DNA from: an uncultured Actinomycetes bacterium
GTDB taxonomy: Bacteria > Actinomycetota > UBA4738 > HRBIN12
Reading direction: 5' to 3'
Length of the DNA: 64,000 bases
Assembly (NCBI GenBank): GCA_963749895.1
Contig: CAVVOG010000003.1
Location: 63,415 to 127,414 of the forward strand
How positions within the stretch are numbered: position 1 is the stretch's first letter; each line of letters begins with the position of its first letter. Shown here piece after piece: positions 383-24,252 of the stretch. Under the pieces are notes generated by a model. The model was not told where the DNA came from. It made no database searches and was given only the letters and a program-made list of their open reading frames with translations. The translations under genes and the position numbers were made by a program.

Positions 383-1981
383 GTGGAGGGGATGAGCCTC
401 CGAGGCGGAGGGCGTGAGGCTCCGAGGGCGGTGTGGCGAAACCCTCAGGATGGGCGGATCTGGATGGGCTTGGAGATGAGTACACAGGTCGGGACGGAGG
501 CGGACGACACCGTCGAGGTCGACCGGTCGCGGACGGCCGACGTCCTGCGCGTGACCGCGGGTGACGTCACCGTCACGACCGAGGTCCCGCTCGAGGAACC
601 GCGTGCGCGGGTGGCACAGCCCTCCGCGGCGGCGGCTCGCCGTCGGGTGGCGTTCGGCATCGCCATGGGCGACGTCGTCGCGTTCGTGGCCGCGATCGTC
701 GTGTCCGACGTGTTGCGTGACACCTCCTTGCCCGTGGCGCTCCTCATGGTGCTCCCGATCCCGCTGTGGCTCGCACTGGTGGGCGCCTTCAGCAATACGG
801 CGTCGTCCGTGATCGCCGGGAGGCTCGGGCTCGCCCGGATCGGCGGGAGCGTCGGCATCGTCGGGTGCGGGGTGGCGATCATCGCCGGTGGGACCCCGGG
901 GTTCGGACCCCGGCTCGGCGTCTTCGTCTCGGCGCTGCTGATCCTCGATCTGTTGCAGCGCGGTGGGTGGGCCTTCTACGCGAGGAGCGAGCGTCGTCAG
1001 GGCCGGCTCCGTCTGCGGACCGTCCTGGTCGGCACGGGAGGCGAGCCCGCCGACTTCGTCGAGATCTTGCGGTCGACAGCCTCGGACCTGATGCCGGTCG
1101 GACGGTTCGTGATGCGCGCCGAGGAGCCGCCCCCGGATGCCCTGCCGACCTTCCGCCGGCTCTCCGAGATCGCCGAGCTGGCGTCCGATGGGACGATCGA
1201 TTGCCTGCTGGTGGCCTCGAGCTCGTTCACCCGAGGGGAGCTCGCGGAGCTGCGGCGGTTCTGCCGCACGTCCGAGCTCCAGCTCCGCGTGTTCACCCGC
1301 GCGCCGGAGGCGGTCGGGTCCAAGCTCGACATCTCGCCTCTCGGGCCGGGGGCCCTCGTCACGGTCCGACCGGCGAAGCTGAACGGCGTCCAGGCCGTCT
1401 TGAAGCGGGGCATGGACATCGTCGCGTCGTCGATCGGCCTGCTCCTGCTCTCGCCGGTGTTCGCGGTGATCGCGATCCTCATCAAGAGGTCCTCGCCGGG
1501 TCCGGTCTTCTTCCGGCAGAACCGCGTGACGCGCGGGGGAAGGGTCTTCAGGATCGCCAAGTTCCGGACGATGGTTACCGACGTGGACCGAATCTTCGCC
1601 GAGAACGGCATCGATCCGACCGTGCCGTTCTTCAAGCCGGACGGCGAGATGCTCGTCACCCGCGTCGGGCGCGTGCTCAGGGCGACCAGTCTCGACGAGC
1701 TTCCCCAGCTCTGGAACGTGCTGGTGGGACAGATGAGCCTCGTCGGGCCGCGGCCGCTCCCACAGGACCAGGTCGTGGCCAACCCCGCGCTGCTCGAGGG
1801 TCGTCACGACGTCCGCGCCGGGGTGACCGGGTGGTGGCAGGTCAACGGGCGCAGCGATGTCCCTGCCGAGGAGGCGGTCCGCCAAGACGTCTTCTACGTC
1901 GAGAACTGGTCGGTCGGGCTCGATATCCGCATCCTCCTCAAGACGTTCGGGGTGCTCGTGTCCCGGCGGGGTGCCTATTGA
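383..1981 (+). CDS. Polyprenyl-phosphate glycosyl-1-phosphate transferase (bacterial sugar transferase family), priming enzyme of the polysaccharide locus
   Basis: 532-aa ORF with a hydrophobic N-terminal half. C-terminal blocks PGPVFFRQNRVTRGGRVFRIAKFRTM, DELPQLWNVLVGQMSLVGPRPLP, GWWQVNGRSD and YVENWSVGLDIRILLKT are typical of WbaP/EpsB-type transferases. Start uncertain (in-frame ATG at 383, 464, 476). Confidence 0.85.
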   Translation: MEGMSLRGGGREAPRAVWRNPQDGRIWMGLEMSTQVGTEADDTVEVDRSRTADVLRVTAGDVTVTTEVPLEEPRARVAQPSAAAARRRVAFGIAMGDVVAFVAAIVVSDVLRDTSLPVALLMVLPIPLWLALVGAFSNTASSVIAGRLGLARIGGSVGIVGCGVAIIAGGTPGFGPRLGVFVSALLILDLLQRGGWAFYARSERRQGRLRLRTVLVGTGGEPADFVEILRSTASDLMPVGRFVMRAEEPPPDALPTFRRLSEIAELASDGTIDCLLVASSSFTRGELAELRRFCRTSELQLRVFTRAPEAVGSKLDISPLGPGALVTVRPAKLNGVQAVLKRGMDIVASSIGLLLLSPVFAVIAILIKRSSPGPVFFRQNRVTRGGRVFRIAKFRTMVTDVDRIFAENGIDPTVPFFKPDGEMLVTRVGRVLRATSLDELPQLWNVLVGQMSLVGPRPLPQDQVVANPALLEGRHDVRAGVTGWWQVNGRSDVPAEEAVRQDVFYVENWSVGLDIRILLKTFGVLVSRRGAY

Positions 1982-2019
1982 TCCGACATCCATCGAGTTG
2001 GCCTCTCGAGGAGGCTTCC

Positions 2020-2883
2020 GTGAGCTCGCCATCGTTGCCCGACCTCTCGTCACGGGAGATCGCCGGCATGCGGGTCGATGCCACCTCCTACGAGGACTCG
2101 ATCCTCCGCGTGATGACGTGGGCGGCGGGCGCTGAGTCCAAGGCGGTCGCGATCGCCACCGTGAACAACGTGATGGAGGCGCACGACGACCCATCGTTCG
2201 CCGCGGTGATGGCCGAGTGCGACCTCGTCACACCCGACGGGATGCCGCTGGTGTGGGCCCTGCGGCGACTGGGGGTCCGGGACGCGACGCGCGTGTACGG
2301 GCCGGAGCTCACGCCCCGGCTCCTCGCTCGCGCCGCCCGCGACGGGGTGCCCGTCGGCTTCTACGGCGGGACCGACGAGGTGATCGCCGCCTTGCTCGCA
2401 AGGCTCGAGCGCGAACTGCCCTCCCTCGAGGTCGCCTACGTGCACGCGCCACCCTTCCGCGCCCTCACCCCCGAAGAGGACGCCACGGTCGTCGACGCGG
2501 TCGTCGCGTCCGGGTGCCGTCTGCTGTTCGTGGGCATCGGGTGCCCGAAGCAGGAGCGATGGATCGTCGAGCACCGAACCGAGATCCCCGCCGTGATGCT
2601 CGGCGTAGGCGCCGCGTTCGACTTCTACGCGGGCCTGAAGCGGCAGGCGCCCGGCTGGATGCAGCGGAGCGGGCTCGAGTGGCTGTTCCGCCTGGGCACA
2701 GAACCGCGGCGGCTGTGGAAGCGATACCTTCGACACAACCCTCGATTCGTGGCGCTGTTCGCCGCGCAGCTGGTACGGACGAAGACGCCGTCGCGACGCG
2801 CGGCGGAGCCGCGGATCACGGATCAGAACGCGAGACCAACACCGAATTCGACACCAAGACCAGAACCGAGGAAGGAGTCATGA
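2020..2883 (+). CDS. WecB/TagA/CpsF-family (GT26) glycosyltransferase
   Basis: In-frame GTG at 2020 is preceded by GAGGAGG (2009-2015). Motifs LVTPDGMPLVW, FYGG, LLFVGIGCPKQERW and GVGAAFDFYAG are present. The upstream part of ORF 766..2883 is only read-through across the previous gene. Confidence 0.85.
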   Translation: MSSPSLPDLSSREIAGMRVDATSYEDSILRVMTWAAGAESKAVAIATVNNVMEAHDDPSFAAVMAECDLVTPDGMPLVWALRRLGVRDATRVYGPELTPRLLARAARDGVPVGFYGGTDEVIAALLARLERELPSLEVAYVHAPPFRALTPEEDATVVDAVVASGCRLLFVGIGCPKQERWIVEHRTEIPAVMLGVGAAFDFYAGLKRQAPGWMQRSGLEWLFRLGTEPRRLWKRYLRHNPRFVALFAAQLVRTKTPSRRAAEPRITDQNARPTPNSTPRPEPRKES

Positions 2884-3872
2884 CGATGAAGCGTGCGGTC
2901 GTGGGAGGCGCAGGTGGGTTCATCGGCCACCACCTGGTGAAGTACCTGAAGGCCGAGGGGTACTGGGTCCGCGGGGCCGATCTCAAGGAGCCGGAGTACG
3001 AGGCCACCGAAGCCGACGAGTTCGAGATCCGGGACCTGCGCGAGTACGAGAACTGCCTGTGGGCGACCGACGGGGTCGACGAGGTGTACCAGCTCGCCGC
3101 CGACATGGGCGGGATCGGGTACATCACCGCGAACCACGCGGAGGTCGCCCGCAACAACGTGCTGATCAACGCGCACATGCTGGAGGCGGCGTACCGCTCC
3201 GGCGTGGAACGGCACTTCTACTCGTCGTCCGCCTGCATCTACCCGATGTACAAGCAGCACGAGCCCGACGTCACCCCGCTCCGGGAGGAGGACGCCTACC
3301 CGGCGGACCCCGAGGAGGGGTACGGATGGGAGAAGCTCTACGCCGAGAAGCTCTGCCAGTACTACACCGACGAGGGCAAGGTGGAGACCCGCGTCGCGCG
3401 GTTCCACAACATCTACGGTCCACTCGGCACGTACGAGGGCGGGCGTGAGAAGGCACCCGCGGCGATCAGCCGCAAGGTGGCGTTGGCCGCCGACGGCGAC
3501 TCCATCGAGATCTGGGGCGACGGCAAGCAGACGCGCTCGTTCACGTACGTGGACGACTGCGTCGAGGGGATCGTCCGTCTGATGAGGTCGGACCACCGTG
3601 CTCCGCTGAACCTCGGGACGGACCGGCTGATCTCCGTCGACGACCTCGTCGACCTCGTGAGTGACGTCGCCGGCAAGTCGCTGGTCAAGGTGCACGACAC
3701 GTCGAAGCCGCAGGGTGTCCGTGGCCGCAACAGCGACAACACGAGGCTCCGCGAGGTGCTCGGCTGGGAGCCGGGAACCACCCTCGAGGACGGCATGGGG
3801 ACGACCTATCGCTGGATCGAGGCCGAGCTGGCCCGCGCGGGTCGGATCGCCCCGCGCGCCGAAGTCAGCTGA
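2880..3872 (+). CDS. GDP-mannose 3,5-epimerase-like NAD-dependent epimerase (extended SDR)
   Basis: ATG 2880 follows GAAGGAG and overlaps the upstream stop (ATGA). Motifs GGAGGFIGHH, SSSACIYP, YGWEKL (YxxxK), RFHNIYGP, GGREKAPAA, QTRSFTYVDDCVEG and GVRGRNSDN are colinear by eye with GME over the full length. Confidence 0.8.
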   Translation: MTMKRAVVGGAGGFIGHHLVKYLKAEGYWVRGADLKEPEYEATEADEFEIRDLREYENCLWATDGVDEVYQLAADMGGIGYITANHAEVARNNVLINAHMLEAAYRSGVERHFYSSSACIYPMYKQHEPDVTPLREEDAYPADPEEGYGWEKLYAEKLCQYYTDEGKVETRVARFHNIYGPLGTYEGGREKAPAAISRKVALAADGDSIEIWGDGKQTRSFTYVDDCVEGIVRLMRSDHRAPLNLGTDRLISVDDLVDLVSDVAGKSLVKVHDTSKPQGVRGRNSDNTRLREVLGWEPGTTLEDGMGTTYRWIEAELARAGRIAPRAEVS

Positions 3873-5191
3873 TGCGCATCTGCGTCATCGGCACCGGCCA
3901 CGTCGGTCTCGTCACGTGCGTGACGCTGGCCGAGATCGGCCACGACGTGACCGGGACGGACCAGGATGCCGAGAAGATGGAGGCGCTGCGGCAGGGCCGC
4001 TCGCCCTTCCACGAGCCGGGGCTCGACGACCTCCTCCGCCGACACCTCGACGCGGGGGATCTCCGGTTCGTCGACGATCCGAGTGGTGCCGTCGCGACGG
4101 CCGACGTCGTGTTCATCTGCGTCGGGACGCCTCCCCGGGCATCCGGGGAGGCGAACCTGCTCGCGGTCGAGCAGGTGGCACGTCAGGTCGCTCAGGATGC
4201 TGCCGGCCCCCTCGTGATCGTCCAGAAATCGACGGTTCCGGCCGGCAGCGCGGACCGACTCCGTCGGACCCTCACGCTCGAGCGCCCCGATCTGGGGCCG
4301 ACGATCGACGTGGTCTCGAACCCCGAGTTCCTCCGGGAGGGCAGAGCGGTGGAGGACTCCCTCCTCCCGGACCGGATCCTGGTCGGGGCGTCGACCGAGC
4401 GGGCGTTCGCCGCGTTGCGCGAGGTCTATCGCCCGCTCCTCGATCGAGGTGTCCGACTGATCGAGACGGACGTGCGGAGCGCCGAACTGGCCAAGCACGC
4501 CAGCAACGCCTTCCTCGCCCTCAAGATCTCGTTCGCGAACGCACTCGCGAGGATCGCCGAGCGCACCGGATCCGATGTGGAGTCCGTCACCGGCATCATG
4601 GGTGCGGATCCGCGGATCGGCGCCGACTTCCTCTCTGCCGGCATCGGGTTCGGGGGGTACTGCTTCCCGAAGGACCTCGTGGCCTTCGATCACCTCGCAG
4701 CGTCGGTCGGGTACGAGTTCGGCCTGTTGAAGGAGGTCGCCGCGATCAACGAGGAGGCGGTCGCGGCGGCCGTCGACAAGGTGCGTGACGCCCTGTGGAA
4801 CCTCGAGGGCAAGCGCGTGGCGCTGCTCGGGCTGTCCTTCAAGCCCGAGACGGACGACGTTCGCTTCTCGCCCGCCCTGGCGGTGGCGCGCAGCCTGCTG
4901 GCGTCGGGCGCCGAGGTCGTGGGCACCGACCCGCAGGCATCGACCGCCGCCCTGCAGGAGGTTCCCGGTCTCGAGATCGCGGAGAACGCCTACGAGGCTG
5001 CGCGGGGTGCGCATTGCCTCGTGCTGTGCACGGCGTGGGACGAGTACCGGAACCTCGACCCCGCCAAGCTCGGCGAGCTGGTCGCGTACCGTGTGATCGT
5101 CGACGGGCGCAACGCCCTGGACGGTGCTGCGTTCGCGGAGGCGGGGTTCGCCTACCACGCGATGGGTCGGCCGTCGCGCGGCACCGTGTAG
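3872..5191 (+). CDS. ugd: UDP-glucose 6-dehydrogenase
   Basis: [14 protein letters not shown] Rossmann N-terminus, NPEFLREG, and GGYCFPKD catalytic-Cys block. The start overlaps the upstream stop (TGATG). Confidence 0.9.
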
Positions 5192-5201
5192 GGTCTCGGT
5201 C

Positions 5202-6131
5202 GTGCGTGCGGTCGTCACGGGCGCGGCGGGCTTCGTCGGGTCGCACGTCGTCACGAGGCTGGTGGACGACGGGTGGACCGTCGTTGGGCTCGACAACCTC
5301 GTCACCGGTCGTGACGAGAACCTCGATCATCTCGCCGAGAGGGACACCTTCTCGCTCCGCCACGCCGACGTGTCCGAGGGGTTCACGCTCGACGGAGAGG
5401 TGGACCTGGTGCTGCATCTCGCCTCGCCGGCCTCCCCGCCGGACTACCTGCAGCGCCCCCTCCAGACGCTCCGGGCGGGCTCCCTCGGCACGCAGTCTGC
5501 GCTCGACCTGGCGACGGAGAAGGGCGCCCGGATCGTGCTGGCCTCGACGTCGGAGGTCTACGGCGACCCGCTCGTACATCCGCAGACGGAGGACTACTGG
5601 GGCAACGTGAACCCGGTGGGTCCGCGTTCCGTGTACGACGAGGCGAAGCGCTACGCGGAGGCGCTGGCGATGGCCTATCACCGGGTCCACGGACTGTCGG
5701 TCGCGCTGGCGCGGATCTTCAACACCTACGGGCCGCGGATGCGCCGCGACGACGGGCGAGCGGTGCCGAACTTCGTCGTCCAGGCACTGCACGACGAGCC
5801 GATCACCGTGCACGGGGACGGATCGCAGACCCGTTCGCTGTGCTTCGTCGACGACCTCGTCGAGGGTCTGATGAGGCTCGCGGCGAGCGAGCACACGGGT
5901 CCGCTGAACCTGGGCAATCCCGAGGAGGTCACGGTGCTCCAGCTCGCTGAGCTGGTCCGCGAGCTGAGCGACAGCCGCTCCGAGGTGGTGTTCGTCGAAC
6001 GGCCGGAGGACGACCCCGCCCGGCGACGTCCCGACATCACGCTCGCGAGGTCGGTCCTGGGGTGGGAGCCGACCGTTCCGCTGCGCGAGGGGCTGGCCCG
6101 GACGCTCGAGTGGGCGACGCCGCGATGGTGA
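5202..6131 (+). CDS. uxs: UDP-glucuronate decarboxylase (UDP-xylose synthase)
   Basis: GTG 5202. Motifs [57 protein letters not shown] and [14 protein letters not shown]. Confidence 0.85.
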
Positions 6132-6141
6132 CCGGCCGCCC

Positions 6142-7296
6142 ATGCGCATCCTGATCCTGCATTCGCGGTACCTGTCCGGCGACGTGTCGGGCGAGAACCG
6201 TGTCGTCCGGGACGAGGCGCGGGTGCTGTCGGAGGCCGGCCACGACGTGCTCCTGCACGAGCCGGCCCCCTCCGTGTCGGGCCTGCGGGCGCAGGCCTCG
6301 ACGGCGGCGAACAGCATCTGGGCGACGCGGGTCGCGGCTGAGGTGAACGCGACGGTGCGGCGTCGGGGGATCGACGTGGTGCACGTCCACAACCTCTTCC
6401 CCGAGCTGTCCCCCCTCGTGCTCAAGGCGGCCCGTCGTGGGGGGGCGGCCGTCGTGATGACGCTGCACAACTTCCGTCTGATGTGCCTGCCGGCCACGCT
6501 GCAGCGTGAGGGCCGAGCCTGCGAGCTCTGCGTCGGACGGCTCCCGTTGCCCGGTGTCCGGTACGGGTGCTACCGGGGCTCGAGGGTCGGTTCGGCGGTC
6601 ATGGCGACGTCGCTCGCGCTCCATCGGGCGATCGGGTCCTTCGGCGCGGTCGACCGCTACCTGGCGGTGAGCGGATACGTCCGCGACCGCCACATCGAGG
6701 CGGGGCTCGACCCGGCGAGGGTCGGCGTCAAGGAGAACTTCGTCTGGCCGCAGCTCGCCCGTCGCGGGACCGAGGGACCGTTCCTGTTCCTGGGCCGCCT
6801 CACCTCCGAGAAGGGTCTCGACACGCTGTTCGATGCGTGGCGAGCGGCGCCGGATCTGGGGGAACTGGTCGTGGCCGGCGACGGACCCGAGCTCGAACGG
6901 CTCCGCGGCGCCGCGCCCGTCGGGGTCCGCGTGATCGGAGCGGTGCCCGCGGACCAGGTCCCCGACATGGTCGCCGCGGCGCGGGCCGTCCTCGTGCCGT
7001 CCGTGTGGCCGGAGCCCGCGGTGCCACGGGCCGTCCTCGAGGCCTACGCGTCGCGTGTCGGTGTGGTCGCCAGCGCGGTGGGGGGGATGCGCGAAGGGGT
7101 TCGTGAGGGTGAGACCGGGTACCTGGTCCCGCCGGGCGACGTCGATGCCTGGGTCGAGGCGCTCCGGCGGCTCCGCCGTGCGGGCGAAGCCGAACGCCTC
7201 GGTGACGGGGGCTTCGCCGTGTGGCGCGAACGCTACGGGCCGGACGCGGGGCTCCGTGCGCTCGAGGCCGTCTACGCGGAAGCGGCCGCTCGATGA
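6142..7296 (+). CDS. GT4-family (GT-B fold) glycosyltransferase
   Basis: MRILILHSRY N-terminus, FLGRLTSEKG, and an EPAVPRAVLEAYASRVGVVASAVGGMREGV block resembling the E-x7-E region. Confidence 0.85.
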   Translation: MRILILHSRYLSGDVSGENRVVRDEARVLSEAGHDVLLHEPAPSVSGLRAQASTAANSIWATRVAAEVNATVRRRGIDVVHVHNLFPELSPLVLKAARRGGAAVVMTLHNFRLMCLPATLQREGRACELCVGRLPLPGVRYGCYRGSRVGSAVMATSLALHRAIGSFGAVDRYLAVSGYVRDRHIEAGLDPARVGVKENFVWPQLARRGTEGPFLFLGRLTSEKGLDTLFDAWRAAPDLGELVVAGDGPELERLRGAAPVGVRVIGAVPADQVPDMVAAARAVLVPSVWPEPAVPRAVLEAYASRVGVVASAVGGMREGVREGETGYLVPPGDVDAWVEALRRLRRAGEAERLGDGGFAVWRERYGPDAGLRALEAVYAEAAAR

Positions 7297-18463: not shown

Positions 18464-18479
18464 ACCCCTGGACGGGTGC

Positions 18480-19382
18480 TCAGAACGACGGATCTTCTCC
18501 CATCTTGGAGAACGAGCGCAGGGCCGCACCGGAGGTATCGACCCAGTACACGCAGTCGGTGCTCTCGTGGTTGTAGGAGCATCCCACCACGTGCGACCAG
18601 CGCTTCATCTTCCGTCGAGCCTGGCGTAGCCACTCCGCCTTCTGCCCGGGAGCGCCTTCCGTGCAGCCGTACTCGATGATGTAGAGACCCTCGCCTCGCC
18701 GCCTGGCGACGTTGTGTGCCGGGCGGAAGATGTCGCCGAAGCCGCGCCACACGCTGGAGCAGTGCGCTCGGTTGTACCCATCGACCCCGAGGAGGTCGTA
18801 TCGCGGAGGGAGCCAGGCACCCGCGCCTCCGTTCCCACCCGCGAAGGTGTACGCCGTGAGCGTCGGGATGAAGCGGAACTTGACGCCGACGTTGTGGAAG
18901 ATCTGGTAGACGCGGTCGTGCGCTGCCTTCCAGTCGGCGGCGTTGCCCTCGTTCTCAGGCTCCTTGTGGAAGCAGAAGTACCCGTTCCACCCGGTGTTCT
19001 TCAGCTCTCGAGCCTGCGACGTGATCCAGCCGTCGTGCTGACCTTCGGCCACCGAGCGCCAGCCGATGAAGCCGCCGCGGCTCGTCCGTGTGAACCACGA
19101 CAGGATCGGGACGTGGCCCGTCTGCACGCTCCACTTCGTGAAGTTGTTCACGAGTTCCCGATCCCACGTGATACGGAAGTGGGTGGTGGCGAACCGCCGA
19201 CCCACCTTCTTCTCGAGGGCTCTCACCGCCTCGATCTGGTCGGCCTGGCCGCCGCGCGGCAGGCACAGCGCGCCCCACCGGATCCGGCGGTCGCCGGCGG
19301 CGTTGGCGAGGCCGCTCGTGGGGCCGAGCGCGACGGTCGCGCCGAGCGCGGCCGATCCTCGCAGGAAGTCTCGTCGTTCCAT
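18480..19382 (-). CDS. Tat-secreted clan GH-A glycoside hydrolase (GH26-like)
   Basis: MERRDFLRGSAALGATVALG twin-arginine signal. FCFHKEPENEG (acid/base-like), LLGVDGYN and LYIIEYGC (nucleophile-like) blocks. Family assignment is tentative. Confidence 0.55.
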   Translation of the reverse strand: MERRDFLRGSAALGATVALGPTSGLANAAGDRRIRWGALCLPRGGQADQIEAVRALEKKVGRRFATTHFRITWDRELVNNFTKWSVQTGHVPILSWFTRTSRGGFIGWRSVAEGQHDGWITSQARELKNTGWNGYFCFHKEPENEGNAADWKAAHDRVYQIFHNVGVKFRFIPTLTAYTFAGGNGGAGAWLPPRYDLLGVDGYNRAHCSSVWRGFGDIFRPAHNVARRRGEGLYIIEYGCTEGAPGQKAEWLRQARRKMKRWSHVVGCSYNHESTDCVYWVDTSGAALRSFSKMGEDPSF

Positions 19383-19641: not shown

Positions 19642-20895
19642 TCAGTGGAACCGGCCGTAGAAGTGCTCGGGTCCGGATTCCCCGTCGAGCCGCGTGAACT
19701 CGCCGCCGATGTGGATCGTCGTTCCGTCGACCACGGTCGCCCAGACCCCCCGGTACCGGCAGCACGGCCGCGGCGTCCACCCCTTGTCGGGCATGCCATC
19801 GCTTCGGCTGATACGAGCGAGCCTGGGCTGCGCCCAGCAGGGCTCCATGCTGTTGGCCTTCCGCGACGGGCACTCGGCCCCGCTCTGGTCTCCCGGTCCG
19901 TCGTCCTCGATCGCGGTCCAGTGGCCCCCGACGACCAGGGATGAGCCGTCGTAGATCGCCAGATCCTGTGCGGACCCGTTCACGTCGGTCTGCCAGATGC
20001 GGGAGCCGTCGGACAACCGGAAGGCCCCGACCCAGTCGTTCCCGCCGGCGGCGACGTACACGTGCTCGCCGTCCACCTCGACCGCGAGACCGAACGCGGC
20101 GCTCTCCTGTCGTGCGCACTCGCAACGCAGCTCCCAGCTGCCGCTCCCGAGGTCGGGTTGTCCGGTGGATGCGTTCACCATGACCGCGACCTTCTTCTGG
20201 TGGGCGGCGTCCTGGCCGTCGATCCAGTCGAACTGACCGACGACCAACAGCGTCGTGGGCGAGATCTGCTCGATCTCGCGGAACCCCGGCGAGGTGGCAT
20301 GCCCCCTGAGCCGACCGTCGATGTAGGCGACCATCTGGTGCCAGGAACCCCCCCCGCCGCCGCCCAGACCGAACCGCCACAGCTTCCGCCCGCCCGCGTA
20401 CACGTGATCCGACGTGGCCAGGACCGACTTGAGCCCTCCGACCTTGTACGTCGCAGCGATCGTCCCGTCGTCGGGATCGATCCCGATCAGGTTCTTGAAC
20501 GCCTTGCCCCCGTGCGTGTACGTGAACTTGCCGGCCACGTAGAGGATGCCGTCCGGACCCAGTGACAGGTCCCAGACCGTGGGTCGCGTGCCCCCGAGCC
20601 GCGGCAGGTTGCCGTGGATCGAGCCGACCAGCGTGCCGTCGGCGCCGAAGACGGTCAGGCCCGAGGCGTCCGCCACGGGGCTGCCGTTCTGGTTCTCGAC
20701 CTCGGAGAACCTCCCCCCGATCCAGGAACGCCCCGCATGCACGACGACGTCGTGGACGACGGGTCCGTCGACCATGTAGACACCCGCGTCAGCCGTGCTG
20801 CTGGGCGATGCCGAGGCGATCGTGGGCAGGGCGACGATGAGGATCGTCGCCAGCGTCGTCACCCGCAGTGGGGCGAGCCCCCTCCCCGTCCGCAT
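19642..20895 (-). CDS. Secreted beta-propeller repeat protein
   Basis: Signal peptide LATILIVALPTIASASP. Repeated x-GG-x-F/W...DG segments (WIGGRFSEV, YVAGKFTYTHGG, VVGQFDWIDG, IHIGGEFTRLDG). Confidence 0.65.
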   Translation of the reverse strand: MRTGRGLAPLRVTTLATILIVALPTIASASPSSTADAGVYMVDGPVVHDVVVHAGRSWIGGRFSEVENQNGSPVADASGLTVFGADGTLVGSIHGNLPRLGGTRPTVWDLSLGPDGILYVAGKFTYTHGGKAFKNLIGIDPDDGTIAATYKVGGLKSVLATSDHVYAGGRKLWRFGLGGGGGGSWHQMVAYIDGRLRGHATSPGFREIEQISPTTLLVVGQFDWIDGQDAAHQKKVAVMVNASTGQPDLGSGSWELRCECARQESAAFGLAVEVDGEHVYVAAGGNDWVGAFRLSDGSRIWQTDVNGSAQDLAIYDGSSLVVGGHWTAIEDDGPGDQSGAECPSRKANSMEPCWAQPRLARISRSDGMPDKGWTPRPCCRYRGVWATVVDGTTIHIGGEFTRLDGESGPEHFYGRFH

Positions 20896-21191: not shown

Positions 21192-22472
21192 GTGGTGCTG
21201 AGGATGAAGTTGTCCCGCAAGGTCGTTCGAGTCATGGCCGTTCAGTTGGCCGCCCTGGCGGTTCTCGTGGGGGTGGCACCCCAGGCGTTGGCGTTCGTGG
21301 AAACGCCGGATGACACCTGGATGACGAACGGCACCGTGTTCGCGGCCGTGCGTTCGGGCGAATTCGTCTACATCGGCGGCCAGTTCAAGCGGGCCTTCGA
21401 GAACCCCCCCGGCACTGCCGGAGACCGGACCACGGCGTTGGGCATCGCCCGCCTCGATGCCTCGACCGGCGTCGTGGACAAGTCGTGGAAGGTCGACGTC
21501 GCTCGGAGCGACGGCAAGCGTCCGACCGTCTTCGCGATCGCCGTCCTCGGCGGGAAGGTCTTCTTCGGAGGGCAGTTCGACCTGGTGGACGGCCAGCCCC
21601 GCAAGAACATCGCCGCGGTGTCCGTGGCCGACTCGACGCTGGATCCCGACTTCGACCCCGTGATGAGCAACAAGGTCCGGGCCATGATCGCCTCGGACTC
21701 GACGGTGTACGTCGGCGGGTATTTCACCTTCGTCGACGGGCTCGCCCGGAAGCGCCTCGCCGCGTTCGACGCCGCGGGGAACCTGTTGAACTGGAGGGCG
21801 CGCACGGGTGGATCGGTGCGTTCGCTGGCCTTCGATTGCGCCGGTGACTCGGTGTACGCCGGTGGTCTCTTCGAGAAGGCGGCCGGCCCGACCGGATCGC
21901 TCGTCACCCGTGACAGCATCGCCCGGTTCGACGCGGCGAACGCATCGCTGGAGGCATGGCAGACCCGGGATGCGGAGATCGGCAACGGCGCTGTTGCCTA
22001 CGACCTGGCGGTGAGCTGCGCATCCGACCAGATCTTCGCGGGGATCGGCGGCACGAACTTCATCCACGCCTTCGACACCTCCGACGACGACGGGGAGACC
22101 ACCTGGGTCCGCCAGACCGCGGGCAACGTCCAGACCGTTGCCGTGAACGACATGGGTACCGCAGGCGCCGACGACGACCGCGTCTACTTCGGCGGCCACT
22201 TCGGCGGAGGGGTCACCTATCCGGACGGCGCGTGCTCGCTGTCCAAGCCGAAGACCGCGCGGTTCGGCGTCGCCGACCTCGACGGCAACTGTGATCTCAC
22301 CTGGTGGCCGACGTTCGAGGGCAAGTTCTACGGGCCGTGGGCCATCTTGGTGACCGACAACGGTGACCGCGTGTGGGTTGGCGGCCAGTACACCCAGGTG
22401 TGCGACGGCAGCGGGGGCGCGGGCGGCTCGTGCGTGAGCCAGTACTTCATCTCGCGCTTCTCCGACGTGTAG
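21192..22472 (+). CDS. Secreted beta-propeller protein (delta-60/DUF5122-like repeats)
   Basis: Signal peptide AALAVLVGVAPQALA. Repeats every 50-60 aa: VYIGGQFKRAF, VFFGGQFDLVDGQPRKNIAAV, VYVGGYFTFVDGLARKRLAAFD, VYAGGLFEKAAG, VYFGGHFGGG, VWVGGQYTQV. Start is 21192 (GTG) or 21204 (ATG). Confidence 0.7.
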   Translation: MVLRMKLSRKVVRVMAVQLAALAVLVGVAPQALAFVETPDDTWMTNGTVFAAVRSGEFVYIGGQFKRAFENPPGTAGDRTTALGIARLDASTGVVDKSWKVDVARSDGKRPTVFAIAVLGGKVFFGGQFDLVDGQPRKNIAAVSVADSTLDPDFDPVMSNKVRAMIASDSTVYVGGYFTFVDGLARKRLAAFDAAGNLLNWRARTGGSVRSLAFDCAGDSVYAGGLFEKAAGPTGSLVTRDSIARFDAANASLEAWQTRDAEIGNGAVAYDLAVSCASDQIFAGIGGTNFIHAFDTSDDDGETTWVRQTAGNVQTVAVNDMGTAGADDDRVYFGGHFGGGVTYPDGACSLSKPKTARFGVADLDGNCDLTWWPTFEGKFYGPWAILVTDNGDRVWVGGQYTQVCDGSGGAGGSCVSQYFISRFSDV

Positions 22473-22485
22473 GACCCGTTCGGGC

Positions 22486-22552: not shown

Positions 22553-22581
22553 AACGGTTGGGCTCGAACGGAAGGGTGACG

Positions 22582-24252
22582 ATGGCAACGACAGAGGTCC
22601 TGGACCTCCGTGACTACGTCCAGGTGATCTGGCGTCGGCGTCGGCTCGTAGCAGCCACGACGGGGGCCGTCATGCTGCTTTCCCTCGCGATCGCGTTCAC
22701 GCAGCAGTCGACCTACCGGTCTCTGACGAAGGTGCTGGTCCTTCCGGTCACGGTTCCCGGCCAGGCGGTCGCGCCGAACCAGATCATCTCGATGCCCAAC
22801 GAGCTCGAGATCGCGACGTCCGCGAAGGTCGCGGCGGACGCAACCCGCAAGGCGGATAGGGCCGGCGCCAGCATCGGCACGATCGAGGTGTCGAGTCCGA
22901 CCGAGACGCAGACCCTCGACTTCCAGGCGTCGGCGAGCGATGCACGCGCAGCCCAGGTGACGGCGCAGTCGTACGCCACGGCGTACCTCGACTTCCGGAA
23001 GGAGAGCCTCACGTCGAGCATCGACAGCCGTCTCGATTCGGTCGAGAGCCTGCTGGCGGACCTCACCGAGCGACAGACGGCCCTGATCGACCAGCTCGCC
23101 GACGAGGACAACTCGTCCGTCGCCGCGGCCCTCCAGTTCGACCTCAACACCGTCAACAGCGAGATCCGGCTGCGTCAGCAGGAGCAGAACGAACTGGAGC
23201 TGGCGCAGGAGACCGAGGTCGGGTCGATCCTCCAGGACGCCGAGCTCCCGCTCGGGCCCGCAAGCCCCCGCCCGCTCCGCAACCTGATCCTGGGCGCCGT
23301 GCTCGGTTTCCTGCTGGGCATCGCGGTCGCCCTGGTCCGCGACCGGCTCGACCAGCGGATCCAGGGCCGTGAAGACGTCGAAACCGTCACCGAAGCTCCC
23401 GCTCTCGGGCTCATCCCCGAGACGCCGTCGCTGCATCGTCTGATCGCGGTCCTCCCGGGCGGCGACTCGCTCGCCGCCGAGGCCTTCCGATCGTTGCGTG
23501 CGCGCGTGCTGTTCGGAGCGAACCGTGACGGTTACCGGACGATCATGGTGACGAGCGCGATGGAGGGCGAGGGCAAGACCGCGACGACCGTGAACCTCGC
23601 CGTGGCGCTGGCGCAGGCCGACACGCGGGTGGTGCTGGTGTCGGGGGACATGCATCACCCGGGGGTCTGGCGCTACCTGCCGGAACGCGGTCGGCGAGGC
23701 CTCGCCGACGTCCTCGCCGGGTCGACACGCCTCCAGGACGTGCTGGTGCAGACGGATCAGGAGAACCTCGTCCTGCTGCCGAGCGGCACCCTCAGCAAGC
23801 TCCCAGAGGCGGCCCTGGGGTCCGCCGAGATGCTGCGCGTCCTGCAGGAGTTGCTGGAGGACGCCGATCTCGTCTTGCTCGACTCCGCGCCCGTGCTCGG
23901 GGTGGCCGACACGCTCGACATGGCGTCGTTGGTCGACGGCGTCGTGCTCGCGGTCGACGCGAGCACGGCCCGGAAGGATCTCGTGCGAGAGGCATCCGAC
24001 GAGCTCCGCTCGGTCGGTGCGTCGATCATCGGTGTGGTCCTCGTGCGACCGGACGGGCGGCACTTCGAGCGCTACAGCTACAAGTACGGCCGACGCGAGA
24101 CGCTGGGGCCGCCGACCGAGGAGGCGGCCGGGCGTTCCGTGCCGGCGCGACCGGCAGGCGATGCTCCCCGGAAGCCGCCGACCCGACCGACCGATACGGG
24201 CGGGGCGCCCAAGCCTCCGGCGCCGACCAGCCGCGCCTCGACGGGCGCGTAG
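22582..24252 (+). CDS. Polysaccharide co-polymerase (Wzz domain) fused to BY-type tyrosine autokinase
   Basis: N-terminal LDLRDYVQVIWRRRRLV plus TM, a coiled-coil periplasmic region and a second TM. Walker A is TSAMEGEGKTATTVNLA and Walker B-like is LVLLDSAPVLGVAD. There is a C-terminal YSYKY Tyr cluster. ATG 22582 follows GGAAGGG. Confidence 0.85.
   Translation: MATTEVLDLRDYVQVIWRRRRLVAATTGAVMLLSLAIAFTQQSTYRSLTKVLVLPVTVPGQAVAPNQIISMPNELEIATSAKVAADATRKADRAGASIGTIEVSSPTETQTLDFQASASDARAAQVTAQSYATAYLDFRKESLTSSIDSRLDSVESLLADLTERQTALIDQLADEDNSSVAAALQFDLNTVNSEIRLRQQEQNELELAQETEVGSILQDAELPLGPASPRPLRNLILGAVLGFLLGIAVALVRDRLDQRIQGREDVETVTEAPALGLIPETPSLHRLIAVLPGGDSLAAEAFRSLRARVLFGANRDGYRTIMVTSAMEGEGKTATTVNLAVALAQADTRVVLVSGDMHHPGVWRYLPERGRRGLADVLAGSTRLQDVLVQTDQENLVLLPSGTLSKLPEAALGSAEMLRVLQELLEDADLVLLDSAPVLGVADTLDMASLVDGVVLAVDASTARKDLVREASDELRSVGASIIGVVLVRPDGRHFERYSYKYGRRETLGPPTEEAAGRSVPARPAGDAPRKPPTRPTDTGGAPKPPAPTSRASTGA

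What the first reader, a model, noticed from the sequence alone, without database searches (positions are those of the whole stretch)
383..24252. Complete Wzx/Wzy + BY-kinase polysaccharide locus carrying six sulfotransferase genes: candidate pathway for a heavily sulfated exopolysaccharide in a high-GC monoderm
One compact locus holds a full Wzx/Wzy-dependent pathway: a priming transferase (383-1981), GT26, GT4 and GT2 glycosyltransferases, a Wzy-like polymerase (10021-11334), a Wzx/MOP flippase (13307-14752) and a Wzz/BY-kinase (22582-24252). Interleaved are six ORFs that each show both PAPS-binding signatures of sulfotransferases. These are ST1 FLHIGKTAGSS/LRDP, ST2 GQSGSTLL/VRDPRG, ST3 GKGGTTSL/LRDPVER, ST4 LPRSGSTL/WRNP, ST5 SHRSGTGW/IRHP and ST6 PKSGTHL/IRDPRD plus RKGxxGxW. 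Three non-priming glycosyltransferases against six sulfotransferases implies a short repeat unit with several sulfate esters. An APS kinase lies 5 kb further on (29445). Genetically defined bacterial sulfated glycans are few: the Synechocystis xss/synechan locus, rhizobial Nod-factor/KPS sulfation and mycobacterial sulfolipids. I know of no described Wzy-dependent multi-sulfotransferase locus in actinobacteria.
Basis: partly seen in the sequence, partly recalled or inferred. Interest (0 to 1): 0.9.

Follow-up and report, generated by a model that had tools for sequence, protein, structure and literature searches.

The report
Six-sulfotransferase surface-polysaccharide gene cluster
An uncultured soil, groundwater and hot-spring actinobacterial lineage carries a conserved gene cluster for a surface polysaccharide that holds six different sulfate-adding enzymes but only four sugar-adding enzymes. 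This predicts an unusually heavily sulfated bacterial polymer, though a simpler two-sulfotransferase relative was described in Actinoplanes in 2026.

Summary
Window 392-24252 holds a complete Wzx/Wzy pathway: priming transferase, GT26, GT4, GT2, Wzy, Wzx and a fused Wzz/BY-kinase. It also holds six sulfotransferases, all above Pfam gathering cut-offs. ST5 passes only with its true GTG start at 15691, because automatic gene calls cut off its PAPS loop. The six are unrelated lineages, not duplicates. Each has orthologues with conserved PAPS motifs in 19 related loci, 18 of them labelled uncultured Actinomycetota MAGs. Thirteen loci keep at least four of the six. An APS kinase lies at 29445, but no ATP sulfurylase is in the window.

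The best reading is that cytoplasmic, PAPS-dependent sulfotransferases multiply sulfate a roughly tetrasaccharide lipid-linked repeat unit before it is flipped and polymerised. No chemistry supports this yet.

Actinoplanes missouriensis wps-1 (2026) is a Wzx/Wzy locus with two sulfotransferases, and its Pilimelia orthologue shares ST2 (42%), ST3 (29%) and GT26 (40%) with this window. This locus is therefore an expanded new variant.

Extras are an uncharacterised, widespread cytoplasmic β-propeller family tied to glycan sulfation by synteny and fusions, a GH26-like secreted hydrolase, and a short pyruvate kinase paired with ST5. Interest is about 0.6.

The parts
392..1981 (+). Priming polyprenyl-phosphate glycosyl-1-phosphate transferase (PGT). 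It has an N-terminal transmembrane region and a C-terminal Bac_transf domain. About 330 bp of non-coding DNA lies upstream, which is probably the left edge of the locus.
   Evidence: Pfam Bac_transf 8.5e-62. TIGR03025 EPS_sugtrans scores 317 bits against a 295.6 cut-off. The ATG 392 start follows a GGAGG-like site, and there is no frame bias over about 60-380.
2020..2883 (+). GT26 (WecG/TagA/CpsF-family) glycosyltransferase.
   Evidence: Pfam Glyco_tran_WecG 4.7e-59. TIGR00696 scores 172.8 bits against a cut-off of 69. It is 40% identical to the GT26 of the Pilimelia wps-1-like locus.
2880..3872 (+). SDR nucleotide-sugar epimerase/reductase. Its best match is GDP-fucose synthase, but it scores far below the equivalog cut-off. 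It is the most conserved gene of the locus (84-85% identity to L001 and L002).
   Evidence: Pfam Epimerase 4.4e-46; NCBIfam Fcl 138 bits against a cut-off of 500; tblastn.
3872..5191 (+). Nucleotide-sugar 6-dehydrogenase (Ugd/TuaD-like). It would supply a uronic acid precursor.
   Evidence: All three UDPG_MGDP_dh domains are present. TIGR03026 scores 413 bits against a cut-off of 190, and TuaD is the best named model.
5202..6131 (+). Second SDR nucleotide-sugar enzyme, of the 4,6-dehydratase, decarboxylase or 4-epimerase type.
   Evidence: Pfam Epimerase 3e-49 and GDP_Man_Dehyd 7e-47. It reaches no NCBIfam equivalog cut-off.
6142..7296 (+). GT4 glycosyltransferase.
   Evidence: Glyco_trans_1_4 4e-26 and Glyco_transf_4 1.4e-12.
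7299..8237 (-). ST1, a sulfotransferase of the Gal-3-O / heparan-sulfate 6-O and 2-O type.
   Evidence: PF06990 6.9e-16, 58.6 bits against a cut-off of 27. The best solved relatives are HS 6-OST 5t03 (2e-5) and HS 2-OST 3f5f. The motifs FLHIGKTAGS and LR[DE]P are conserved in 12 orthologues.
8191..9168 (+). ST2, a WpsB-type sulfotransferase. Gene callers prefer ATG 8128 as its start. Its PAPS loop has an invariant Gln (GQ[SN]G[SA]T) where the other five have Lys or Arg.
   Evidence: PF13469 at 37.2 bits against a cut-off of 27. The AlphaFold2 model has pLDDT 92.9, and its top 43 Foldseek PDB hits are all PAPS sulfotransferases. It is 42% identical to the Pilimelia terevasa sulfotransferase P0380.
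9168..10079 (+). ST3, a sulfotransferase related to heparan-sulfate 3-O and N-sulfotransferases.
   Evidence: PF13469 2.2e-10 and PF00685 1e-9. PDB matches are 3rnl 2e-17, HS 3-OST 6e-14 and NDST 8e-14. Motifs are conserved in 9 orthologues.
10021..11334 (-). Wzy-type polymerase, a polytopic membrane protein. Its 3' end overlaps the ST3 3' end by 59 bp in convergent orientation.
   Evidence: Wzy_C 4.1e-14, 53 bits against a cut-off of 31.7; multiple hydrophobic segments.
11374..12345 (+). Uncharacterised cytoplasmic β-propeller protein ('Unk323'). It is a signature gene of this locus type, present in 13 of 19 related loci.
   Evidence: No Pfam or NCBIfam family matches. It has 4381 homologues, and every listed hit that carries a name is called hypothetical. 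The exhaustive search finds 1108 representatives at 50% clustering. The AlphaFold2 model has pLDDT 87.9 and is a β-propeller, and Foldseek finds only generic propellers. About 80 columns are invariant, rich in His, Asn, Asp and Arg. Family members are fused to Wzx, to GT2, to GT41 plus Sulfotransfer_1, and to 2OG-oxygenase-like domains. It has no transmembrane segment or signal peptide.
12315..13310 (-). ST4, a Sulfotransfer_3 enzyme (NoeE-like N-terminus, CurM-ST-like). It is the last gene of the ST5-Wzx-ST4 operon, and its start overlaps the Wzx stop by 4 nt.
   Evidence: PF13469 1.3e-30; NoeE 8e-23, partial match; PDB 4gox 3.7e-10. LPR[SA]GSTL and WR[NHD]P are conserved in the orthologues; the loop is seen in 18 of 19, because L017 is cut at its contig end.
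13307..14752 (-). Wzx/MOP-family flippase.
   Evidence: Polysacc_synt 7.7e-15, Polysacc_synt_3 1.4e-12 and MatE 2e-7.
14759..15691 (-). ST5, a sulfotransferase with a weak resemblance to mycobacterial Stf1. Its true start is GTG 15691 (310 aa).
   Evidence: With the long start it scores PF13469 34.7 bits (cut-off 27) and PF00685 24.2 bits (cut-off 22). HRSGTGW (one orthologue each reads HRSGSTF or HRTGTGW) and [IV]RHP are conserved in 14 orthologues. PDB 2zq5 scores 0.0035.
15736..16527 (+). GT2 glycosyltransferase, the first gene of the GT2-PK-ST6 operon. It is transcribed divergently from ST5, with a 44-bp gap between them.
   Evidence: Glycos_transf_2 3.6e-23.
16630..17655 (+). Pyruvate kinase that lacks the C-terminal allosteric domain (A and B domains only). 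Its stop lies 1 nt before the ST6 start.
   Evidence: Pfam PK 7.2e-63. The best solved match is M. tuberculosis PK 5wrp at 4.6e-53, covering residues 9-338 of 475, with the catalytic motifs retained. It belongs to a family of about 341 aa. Members sit next to ST5-like genes in non-EPS contexts but not always.
17657..18463 (+). ST6, a cytosolic-SULT-like sulfotransferase with the PKSGTHL, IRDPRD and RKGTIGQW motifs.
   Evidence: PF00685 7.6e-8, 32.5 bits against a cut-off of 22. PDB SULT7A1 5x2b 3e-5 and Teg14 2e-4. Orthologues occur only in L001, L002 and L006.
18480..19382 (-). TAT-exported GH26-like glycoside hydrolase, probably a polymer-trimming or release enzyme.
   Evidence: TAT signal 1.5e-6. 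PDB C. thermocellum CelH GH26 domain 2vi0 at 2e-4 over residues 52-292. It parallels the GH26 protein WpsE in wps-1.
19642..20895 (-). Secreted protein of unknown function with repeated '[YF]xGGxF' motifs, probably a β-propeller.
   Evidence: N-terminal hydrophobic segment; only a weak PQQ_2 match; paralogous to 21192-22472; conserved in L001 and L002.
21192..22472 (+). Secreted paralogue of the previous protein. It is conserved in more distant loci at 28-43% identity.
   Evidence: BLASTP 23% identity over the full length, E = 9e-11; signal-like N-terminus; tblastn.
22582..24252 (+). Fused Wzz/PCP and BY-kinase: two transmembrane segments, an extracytoplasmic Wzz/GNVR domain and a cytoplasmic kinase domain. 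It has Walker A and B motifs, a variant Walker A' and a Y498/500/502 cluster.
   Evidence: Wzz, GNVR and AAA_31 domains. TIGR01007 scores 122.9 bits against a cut-off of 108. PDB VpsO 4e-27 and CapB 5e-25.
27979..29448 (+). Cytoplasmic NPP / alkaline-phosphatase-superfamily protein whose stop overlaps the cysC start (ATGA). It may belong to the PAPS/PAP economy, but its role is unknown.
   Evidence: Pfam Phosphodiest 3.6e-42; no PDB relative; no transmembrane segment.
29445..30071 (+). APS kinase (CysC), which makes the sulfate donor PAPS. It is separated from the locus by groES-groEL and a Glu/Leu dehydrogenase.
   Evidence: APS_kinase 3.7e-59. It is 45-47% identical to the kinase half of the Pilimelia Sat/CysC.

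Best explanation
The locus encodes a Wzx/Wzy-dependent pathway for a multiply sulfated surface polysaccharide (capsule or EPS) of a monoderm Actinomycetota bacterium.

Proposed mechanism:
- Ugd and two SDR enzymes supply uronic acid or modified nucleotide sugars.
- The PGT primes undecaprenyl phosphate, and GT26, GT4 and GT2 extend it to a repeat unit of about four sugars on the cytoplasmic face.
- Six soluble cytoplasmic sulfotransferases of six different lineages, several related to heparan-sulfate or Nod-factor carbohydrate sulfotransferases, transfer sulfate from PAPS to distinct positions of the lipid-linked unit. PAPS is made with the nearby CysC. Sulfation must come before export because PAPS is cytoplasmic.
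- Wzx flips the sulfated unit, Wzy polymerises it, and the fused Wzz/BY-kinase sets chain length and output.
- A TAT-exported GH26-like hydrolase and two secreted propeller-like proteins process or organise the polymer outside the cell.
- The conserved cytoplasmic β-propeller is an additional repeat-unit-modifying enzyme or a scaffold.

Shown here: gene identities, operon interleaving, and co-conservation. Inferred: the acceptor, the stoichiometry (up to about 1.5 sulfates per sugar), the timing, and the roles of the unknown proteins.
For: - All pathway components are identified above curated cut-offs.
- All six sulfotransferases pass Pfam gathering thresholds.
- ST2, the least canonical, folds as a PAPS sulfotransferase.
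- The six do not align with one another, so they are not redundant recent duplicates.
- Each has orthologues at 43-73% identity with both PAPS motifs conserved.
- The sulfotransferases sit inside pathway operons: ST5-Wzx-ST4 with a 4-nt overlap, ST2-ST3, and GT2-PK-ST6.
- None of the sulfotransferases has a transmembrane segment or signal peptide.
- The locus recurs in 19 species-level genomes. L001 and L002 have all six sulfotransferases, and 13 loci have at least four.
- Closest solved relatives are carbohydrate sulfotransferases for ST1 (HS 6-OST and 2-OST) and ST3 (HS 3-OST and NDST). ST4's N-terminus matches NoeE.
- In synechan, 8 GT and 2 ST genes matched an 8:2 sugar-to-sulfate ratio.
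- In wps-1 of Actinoplanes, both sulfotransferase genes and the adjacent Sat/APS-kinase gene are needed for the phenotype.
- A sortase in the window and the absence of any OPX/Wza gene fit a monoderm.
Against: - There are no chemical data on any product, and no cultured organism carries this locus.
- No sulfotransferase acceptor is known.
- No ATP sulfurylase lies in the 64-kb window or in the related loci, and cysC is outside the locus.
- ST2 lacks the usual Lys/Arg of the 5'-PSB loop.
- ST6 and the short PK occur only in the closest relatives, so the number of sulfotransferases varies from 4 to 6.
- Further glycosyltransferases could be encoded elsewhere, which would make the repeat unit larger and the sulfate density lower.
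- The BY-kinase Walker A' motif is non-canonical.
- The Wzy_C family also includes ligases and O-oligosaccharyltransferases.
Confidence: 0.7

Rival explanations
1. The biosynthetic logic is the same, but the product is a peptidoglycan-anchored, phosphate-free anionic wall polymer. It would be a sulfated teichuronic-acid analogue that takes over the polyanion role of teichoic acids, rather than a released EPS.
For: - The best named NCBIfam models for Ugd, GT4 and GT2 are the B. subtilis teichuronic-acid proteins TuaD, TuaC and TuaG.
- GT26 is the TagA/TarA family that builds wall-polymer linkage units.
- The host is a monoderm with a sortase.
- The relatives come from habitats where phosphorus limitation would be plausible, such as soil, groundwater and a hot spring (titles). 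The limitation itself is my assumption.
Against: - All Tua matches are far below equivalog cut-offs.
- No LCP (LytR-CpsA-Psr) ligase is in the locus.
- The priming enzyme is of the EPS/WbaP type, not TagO/WecA.
- A secreted GH26-like hydrolase and a BY-kinase are more typical of EPS/CPS systems.
Confidence: 0.25
2. The polymer is only lightly or variably sulfated. The six sulfotransferases would be alternative, sub-stoichiometric or condition-specific decorators, or some would be inactive, so gene count does not equal sulfates per repeat.
For: - The number of sulfotransferases per locus varies from 4 to 6 among relatives, and ST6 is restricted to the closest ones.
- ST2 has Gln in place of the catalytic-loop Lys/Arg.
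- In synechan one sulfotransferase mutant (xssE) had little effect.
- In wps-1 the wpsB mutant had a milder phenotype than wpsH.
Against: - All six keep both PAPS motifs under long-term conservation at 43-73% identity.
- They are six distinct lineages, which suggests distinct regiospecificities.
- Five of the six (ST1-ST5) recur in three of the distant loci (L003, L008, L015).
Confidence: 0.3
3. The Wzy_C protein is an O-oligosaccharyltransferase or ligase. In this reading the sulfated oligosaccharide is attached to secreted or S-layer proteins, for example the two locus-encoded secreted propeller proteins, rather than polymerised.
For: - Pfam Wzy_C (PF04932) covers WaaL ligases and PglL/PilO-type O-OTases as well as polymerases (family knowledge; hit).
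- Two secreted proteins of unknown function are encoded in the locus.
Against: - A PCP/BY-kinase co-polymerase is present and conserved, and it works with Wzy polymerases.
- The architecture matches wps-1 and xss, where a polysaccharide is inferred or shown.
Confidence: 0.05
4. Most of the 'sulfotransferases' are other P-loop enzymes such as kinases or NTPases, and the locus makes an ordinary non-sulfated EPS.
For: Sulfotransferase and P-loop kinase folds are related. One adenylate kinase appears at rank 44 of the ST2 fold search.
Against: - All six exceed the gathering cut-offs of sulfotransferase-specific Pfam models.
- The 3'-phosphate-binding R-[DNH]-P motif is conserved in all six.
- ST2's top 43 structural matches are all sulfotransferases.
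- PDB sequence matches are sulfotransferases for ST3, ST4 and ST6; ST1's four matches at E <= 1 are three HS sulfotransferase chains plus one ParA-family ATPase at E 0.45; ST5 has one weak match, sulfotransferase Stf1.
Confidence: 0.02

Closest known systems
Actinoplanes missouriensis wps-1 cluster (WpsA-K plus adjacent AMIS_7390; PMC13390465, 2026), and its orthologue in Pilimelia terevasa (locus L020)
   Same: - Both are in the phylum Actinomycetota.
- Both are Wzx/Wzy/Wzz loci with GT2, GT26, a GH26-type hydrolase and sulfotransferases of different families.
- PAPS-synthesis genes lie nearby in both.
- Direct homology to the Pilimelia orthologue: ST2 42% (full length), ST3 29%, GT26 40%, Wzz part 28%, CysC 45%.
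- Both loci lie in a chromosome region that also holds purN-purH-folD and a DUF6350/PerM-like gene.
   Different: - wps-1 has two sulfotransferases; this locus has six.
- wps-1 has a methyltransferase, a kinase-like protein and DUF4262, all absent here.
- wps-1 has a bifunctional Sat/APS kinase directly adjacent. Here there is only a monofunctional CysC 5 kb away, coupled to an NPP-like gene.
- Wzx, Wzy and GT2 show no detectable similarity by tblastn.
- This locus adds a PGT, a GT4, Ugd, two SDR enzymes, the β-propeller family, a short PK and a BY-kinase domain on the Wzz protein.
- The wps-1 product's sulfation is itself unverified.
Synechocystis sp. PCC 6803 xss cluster (synechan; PMC8205485)
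   Same: It is a Wzx/Wzy/PCP-dependent pathway with sulfotransferases embedded among the glycosyltransferases. It is also the only case read here in which gene counts matched the measured sugar-to-sulfate ratio of the product.
   Different: - It has 8 GTs and 2 STs (0.25 sulfate per sugar), against 4 sugar transferases and 6 STs here.
- It is from a diderm cyanobacterium and needs an OPX protein.
- It is plasmid-borne and regulated by XssQRS; none of these features is present here.
- Sequence relatedness was not tested because no xss sequences were available.
Sulfated capsule clusters of marine Gram-negatives (Vibrio sp. KMM 8419, Cobetia marina KMM 1449) and the Pontiella sulfated GAG-like EPS cluster
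   Same: They are polysaccharide gene clusters that contain sulfotransferase genes. For Pontiella, chemical evidence of sulfated polymers was read. For Vibrio and Cobetia only titles and abstract openings were seen.
   Different: - The putative Pontiella GAG cluster holds one sulfotransferase gene. The Vibrio and Cobetia clusters were not read for their sulfotransferase counts.
- They come from diderm hosts, and their glycosyltransferase sets are unrelated.
- These papers were not read in depth and no sequences were compared.
Animal heparan-sulfate modification machinery (NDST, 2-OST, 3-OST, 6-OST)
   Same: - Several sulfotransferases of different regiospecificity act on one uronic-acid-containing glycan.
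- ST1 and ST3 have these enzymes as their closest solved relatives.
- The predicted sulfate density is of the same order as heparin. The heparin figure is from my own knowledge.
   Different: - Animal enzymes are Golgi-lumenal and act on the finished polymer. Here the sulfotransferases are cytoplasmic and must act on a lipid-linked repeat unit.
- Similarity is distant (E of 1e-5 to 1e-14).
- No N-deacetylase or recognisable C5-epimerase is present.

Membership tests
Wzx/Wzy-dependent polysaccharide pathway | Polyprenyl-phosphate priming glycosyl-1-phosphate transferase | tested here: met
   Bac_transf 8.5e-62. TIGR03025 scores 317 bits against a 295.6 cut-off.
Wzx/Wzy-dependent polysaccharide pathway | MOP-family Wzx flippase | tested here: met
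   Polysacc_synt 55.5 bits and Polysacc_synt_3 47.9 bits, both above cut-off; polytopic membrane protein.
Wzx/Wzy-dependent polysaccharide pathway | Wzy polymerase. The Wzy_C domain cannot be told apart from a ligase or O-OTase by sequence alone. | tested here: inconclusive
   Wzy_C scores 53.1 bits against a cut-off of 31.7, and the protein is polytopic. Polymerase activity as opposed to ligase activity cannot be tested here.
Wzx/Wzy-dependent polysaccharide pathway | Polysaccharide co-polymerase (Wzz/PCP) | tested here: met
   Wzz at 31.1 bits (cut-off 25.5) plus GNVR, with two transmembrane segments flanking the external domain.
BY-kinase (bacterial tyrosine autokinase) | Walker A, Walker A' (DxDxR), Walker B and a C-terminal tyrosine cluster | tested here: inconclusive
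   TIGR01007 scores 122.9 bits against a cut-off of 108. Walker A is EGEGKT, Walker B is LVLLDSAP, and the Tyr cluster is Y498/Y500/Y502. Walker A' reads SGDMHH instead of DxDxR(K). Autophosphorylation cannot be tested here.
PAPS-dependent sulfotransferase superfamily (ST1-ST6) | Match to a sulfotransferase profile above its curated threshold | tested here: met
   All six pass. ST5 passes only with the GTG 15691 start.
PAPS-dependent sulfotransferase superfamily (ST1-ST6) | 5'-phosphosulfate-binding loop with Lys/Arg, and a 3'-phosphate-binding Arg motif, both conserved in orthologues | tested here: met
   Both motifs are conserved in every orthologue set. The exception is ST2, which has an invariant Gln in place of Lys/Arg.
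PAPS-dependent sulfotransferase superfamily (ST1-ST6) | Sulfotransferase fold | tested here: met
   Tested for ST2 only. The model has pLDDT 92.9, and the top 43 PDB matches are all sulfotransferases with TM 0.5-0.6. The other five rest on sequence matches to solved sulfotransferases.
PAPS-dependent sulfotransferase superfamily (ST1-ST6) | PAPS-dependent sulfate transfer to a glycan acceptor | not testable with these tools
   This needs enzyme assays.
wps-1-type actinomycete cluster (orthology) | Orthologous Wzx, Wzy and GT2 core | tested here: not met
   tblastn of the window's Wzx, Wzy and GT2 against the Pilimelia wps-1 orthologue L020 gives no hit at E <= 1e-3.
wps-1-type actinomycete cluster (orthology) | WpsB-type and WpsH-type sulfotransferases and a GT26 | tested here: met
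   ST2 42%, ST3 29% and GT26 40% against L020.
wps-1-type actinomycete cluster (orthology) | Methyltransferase WpsF, kinase-like WpsI, and an adjacent bifunctional Sat/APS kinase | tested here: not met
   No such domains occur in the locus. Only a monofunctional CysC is present, 5 kb away.
Synechan xss-type cluster | OPX export protein and XssQ/R/S regulators | tested here: not met
   No OPX (Poly_export) family and no two-component or STAND regulator of the XssQ/R/S kind turned up in any window gene scanned. An OPX is not expected in a monoderm.

The most novel reading that the evidence does not exclude
This widespread uncultured Actinomycetota lineage makes a heparin-like, hyper-sulfated uronic-acid polysaccharide with at least one sulfate per sugar, assembled on a lipid carrier. 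That would be a bacterial, cytoplasmic counterpart of the animal GAG-modification machinery. It would include a previously unrecognised modifying enzyme family, the His-rich β-propeller. One candidate activity is uronate C5-epimerase or lyase-type chemistry. The polymer may serve as a phosphate-free polyanionic envelope.
Probability: 0.25. Interest if true: 0.85.

Novelty: new variant of a known kind. Interest (0 to 1): 0.6.

Why it matters
Two recent primary papers still state that, among bacteria, sulfated polysaccharides are essentially confined to cyanobacteria. This locus shows that a whole group of uncultured soil, groundwater and hot-spring Actinomycetota conserves a pathway with more sulfotransferases than glycosyltransferases. 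That predicts a charge density far above any genetically defined bacterial polymer.

If confirmed, three things would follow:
- The known range of sulfated glycans would extend to abundant terrestrial bacteria, with consequences for metal binding, water retention and sulfur cycling in soils.
- It would provide six compact, soluble bacterial carbohydrate sulfotransferases of different specificities for making heparin-like materials without animals.
- It would give a functional handle on an uncharacterised protein family with thousands of members.

It also gives context to the chemically unverified Actinoplanes wps-1 system.

Tried and rejected
- Exact-protein look-ups of the PGT, to recover the source contig and the DNA left of the window, found nothing with either start. 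The left boundary therefore rests only on the 330-bp non-coding stretch.
- The Rfam scan of the whole window found no RNA family.
- NCBIfam gave no equivalog for any sulfotransferase or for the unknown proteins.
- Four further literature searches found no description of this locus type, of the propeller family, or of chemically proven sulfated polysaccharides from actinobacteria.
- I considered that the sulfotransferases might be other P-loop enzymes. I rejected this on profile and fold evidence.
- I considered that the short pyruvate kinase is a dedicated ATP-regenerating helper for PAPS synthesis. This is not rejected but is weakened. The family is very conserved and sometimes sits in housekeeping surroundings near proS without any sulfotransferase. 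It may simply be the lineage's main pyruvate kinase, with an old adjacency to ST5.
- I looked for an ATP sulfurylase in the window and in the 19 related loci, using the Pilimelia Sat/CysC as probe, and found none.
- The class-level taxonomy of the source could not be fixed. Record titles say only Actinomycetota or Actinomycetes.

Full report
**Observation**

The window is about 70% GC, so raw ORF lists are unreliable. I chose genes by third-position GC and frame plots.
- A Bac_transf priming transferase at 383/392-1981. TIGR03025 is above its cut-off.
- GT26 at 2020-2883, GT4 at 6142-7296 and GT2 at 15736-16527.
- A Wzy_C protein at 10021-11334(-).
- A MOP flippase at 13307-14752(-).
- A fused Wzz/GNVR plus tyrosine-kinase protein at 22582-24252. 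TIGR01007 is above its cut-off.

The locus also holds a nucleotide-sugar 6-dehydrogenase and two SDR enzymes (2880-6131). Independent gene calls on metagenomic contigs carrying identical proteins match my coordinates for five central genes.

**The six sulfotransferases**

ST1 to ST4 and ST6 exceed Pfam gathering scores directly. ST5 at first scored only 16.9 bits. Its quoted 'SHRSGTGW' loop was missing from the 286-aa version that automatic callers also produce. Reading from GTG 15691 restores 'ILVTGSHRSGTGW', and the 310-aa protein passes both Sulfotransfer_3 and Sulfotransfer_1. The loop is present in all 14 orthologues, so the long start is correct.

The six proteins do not align with one another beyond motif-sized stretches. 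They are six lineages, not a recent amplification. Their closest solved relatives are:

| Protein | Closest solved or named relatives |
|---|---|
| ST1 | heparan-sulfate 6-O and 2-O sulfotransferases |
| ST3 | heparan-sulfate 3-O and N-sulfotransferases |
| ST4 | CurM and olefin-synthase ST domains; a NoeE-like N-terminus |
| ST5 | mycobacterial Stf1 (weak) |
| ST6 | cytosolic SULT and Teg14 |

ST2 is the least canonical, with Gln where the others have Lys or Arg in the PAPS loop. I modelled it (pLDDT 92.9), and its top 43 PDB fold matches are all PAPS sulfotransferases. The refutation condition 'most are other P-loop families' is therefore not met.

**Conservation**

A scan of one genome per species found 19 related loci. 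Eighteen are labelled uncultured Actinomycetota or Actinomycetes MAGs from a hot spring, groundwater and soils. One, L007, is labelled only 'bacterium', and one, L016, is labelled Phycisphaeraceae. tblastn with all window proteins gave the following:
- L001 and L002 are collinear, with all six sulfotransferases.
- 13 of 19 loci keep at least four of the six. Several of the rest are short contigs.
- The gene order is shuffled in distant members, while the gene set persists: ST1-5, Wzx, Wzy, GT2, GT4, GT26 and the 323-aa unknown.

Both PAPS motifs are conserved in every orthologue set at 43-73% overall identity. No cultured organism appeared.

**Organisation and mechanism**

The sulfotransferases are embedded in pathway operons. 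ST5-Wzx-ST4 lies on the minus strand, with the Wzx stop and ST4 start overlapping by 4 nt. ST2-ST3 overlap by 1 nt. GT2-PK-ST6 has the PK stop 1 nt before the ST6 start (coordinates). None of the sulfotransferases has a hydrophobic segment. PAPS is cytoplasmic, which is established biochemistry, so sulfation has to occur on the lipid-linked repeat unit before Wzx flipping. That step is an inference.

With one priming and three further transferases, the repeat unit is about four sugars, and six sulfotransferases allow up to about 1.5 sulfates per sugar. The synechan precedent, with 8 GT and 2 ST genes and an 8:2 sugar-to-sulfate ratio, makes gene-count reasoning reasonable but not safe. Extra GTs may lie elsewhere, and the number of sulfotransferases varies from 4 to 6 among relatives.

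The kinase domain aligns with VpsO and CapB. Walker A, Walker B and a three-Tyr cluster are intact, and Walker A' is non-canonical. No OPX protein is present and a sortase lies in the window, which fits a monoderm.

CysC is confirmed at 29445. No ATP sulfurylase occurs in the window or in the related loci.

**Other conserved parts**

1. *The 323-aa protein at 11374-12345.* It has no Pfam or NCBIfam family. It has 4381 homologues in metagenomes; every listed hit that carries a name is called hypothetical. The exhaustive search finds 1108 representatives at 50% clustering. It is predicted with confidence to be a β-propeller that resembles only generic propellers. About 80 columns are invariant, rich in His, Asn, Asp and Arg, which suggests an enzyme. 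Family members occur fused to a Wzx flippase, to a GT2, to GT41 plus a sulfotransferase, and to 2OG-oxygenase-like domains. This ties the family to glycan assembly and sulfation independently of synteny.
2. *The protein at 18480-19382.* It is TAT-exported and resembles the GH26 domain of C. thermocellum CelH.
3. *The proteins at 19642-20895 and 21192-22472.* They are secreted distant paralogues with propeller-like repeats.
4. *The protein at 16630-17655.* It is a pyruvate kinase with intact catalytic motifs but no C-terminal domain. Its family of about 341 aa is very conserved. In other genomes it sits beside an ST5-like sulfotransferase outside any EPS locus, but once without one, near proS. 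It is either a helper that regenerates ATP for PAPS synthesis or simply the lineage's main pyruvate kinase with an old adjacency to ST5. I cannot decide between these.

**Comparison with known systems**

The closest described system is wps-1 of Actinoplanes missouriensis (PMC13390465, 2026). It contains GT2, ST (WpsB), GT26, DUF4262, GH26, a methyltransferase, Wzx, ST (WpsH), a kinase-like protein, Wzy and Wzz, with a Sat/APS-kinase gene next to it whose deletion is severe. The authors infer, without chemistry, a sulfated polysaccharide of the sporangium matrix.

A homologue of ST2 from cultured Pilimelia terevasa lies in a locus with the wps-1 gene order. Against it the window shows ST2 42%, ST3 29%, GT26 40%, the Wzz part 28% and CysC 45%, but nothing for Wzx, Wzy or GT2. 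The window's locus is therefore related to wps-1 through some modules, but it is not its orthologue. It has three times the sulfotransferases, plus the PGT, GT4, Ugd/SDR genes, the propeller family and a kinase-bearing Wzz.

Synechan xss (two sulfotransferases and eight GTs, in a diderm) works alike but is further away. Other sulfotransferase-bearing clusters, in Vibrio, Cobetia and Pontiella, are diderm systems. The putative Pontiella cluster holds one sulfotransferase. The Vibrio and Cobetia papers were not read for their counts.

**Verdict**

The functional interpretation is supported as an inference. The claim of no precedent in actinobacteria is outdated.

I rate this a new variant of a known kind, with interest about 0.6. 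The exceptional points are the ST-to-GT ratio, its conservation across an uncultured lineage, and the attached uncharacterised protein family. There is no chemistry and no cultured host. The most novel reading not excluded is a heparin-like hyper-sulfated uronic polymer made on a lipid carrier, with a new modifying enzyme. I give that about 0.25 probability.

Noticed in passing
window 14759-15691 (-): Automatic gene callers start ST5 at ATG 15619 (286 aa). That cuts off the conserved PAPS-binding loop, and the protein then falls below Pfam thresholds. The true start is GTG 15691. Homologues in public databases are probably under-annotated for the same reason.
   Followed up: yes
window 11374-12345 (+); fusion proteins P0122, P0123, P0127, P0140: This is a large uncharacterised β-propeller family with no Pfam model: 4381 hits, or 1108 clusters at 50% identity. 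It is His-rich and highly conserved. Members are fused to a Wzx flippase, to GT2, to GT41 plus a sulfotransferase, or to Asp/Arg-hydroxylase-like domains. It is a candidate new glycan-modifying enzyme or scaffold.
   Followed up: partly
window 16630-17655 (+); L021 6959-9026, L022 4716-9011, L024 4844-7026: A pyruvate kinase without the C-terminal domain recurs next to an ST5-like sulfotransferase (42-43% identical to ST5). This occurs in a non-EPS synteny block of rhomboid, ComB-like phosphatase, DUF1349, aldo-keto reductase, ST, PK and Usp. In L023 the PK lies near proS with no sulfotransferase. The meaning of the ST5-PK pairing is unknown.
   Followed up: partly
window 27979-30071 (+): A cytoplasmic NPP/alkaline-phosphatase-superfamily gene overlaps the cysC start by 4 nt (ATGA), which suggests translational coupling. 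No ATP sulfurylase (Sat/CysDN) or CysQ-type PAP phosphatase is anywhere in the 64 kb. The NPP-like protein has no solved relative.
   Followed up: partly
window 32339-36012: A lower-GC (0.65), weak-codon-bias island lies between an IMPDH-like gene and guaA. It holds an ECF sigma factor (34545-35033), an adjacent anti-sigma-like membrane protein (33736-34548) that appears, from reading the two translations, to share its C-terminal domain with 32339-33115, an RTX-repeat secreted protein (33090-33662), and a PIN-domain toxin (C-terminal half of 35203-36012). It is probably acquired DNA.
   Followed up: partly
window 46312-53929 (-): There are three paralogous genes that fuse an α/β-hydrolase to an adenylate/guanylate-cyclase domain (46312-47640, 50034-51485, 52227-53573). 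Nearby are a cyclase fragment (53570-53929) and further α/β-hydrolases (51497-52225, 54083-54931). This looks like a local gene-family expansion.
   Followed up: no
window 7299-8237/8191-9168; 9168-10079/10021-11334; 11374-12345/12315-13310: The packing is unusually tight. The divergent ST1 and ST2 coding regions overlap at their 5' ends, by 47 bp or by 110 bp with the ATG 8128 start. The convergent 3' ends of ST3 and Wzy overlap by 59 bp, and those of the propeller gene and ST4 by 31 bp.
   Followed up: no
window 57398-62514 and L020 17178-21047: The Pilimelia wps-1-like locus lies right next to folD-purH-purN and a DUF6350/PerM-like gene. The same genes lie about 35 kb downstream of the locus in this window. 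The two sulfated-glycan loci may occupy the same ancestral chromosome region.
   Followed up: no
L016 (JBGTLW010000094.1) 10001-10870: A MAG labelled Phycisphaeraceae (Planctomycetota) carries a 49%-identical ST4 homologue next to several GT2 genes but none of the other locus genes. This could be horizontal transfer or a binning error.
   Followed up: no
window 22582-24252 (+): The BY-kinase Walker A' motif reads VSGDMHHP instead of the canonical DxDxR(K). A Pro-rich tail of about 50 residues follows the Tyr cluster. I did not check whether the relatives share this variant.
   Followed up: no
L001 vs window 3872-6131: The closest relative, L001, lacks the Ugd and second SDR genes between GT4 and the first SDR gene, while L002 has them. 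The sugar-precursor genes are therefore a variable part of the locus. The first SDR gene, by contrast, is the most conserved gene (84-85% identity).
   Followed up: no
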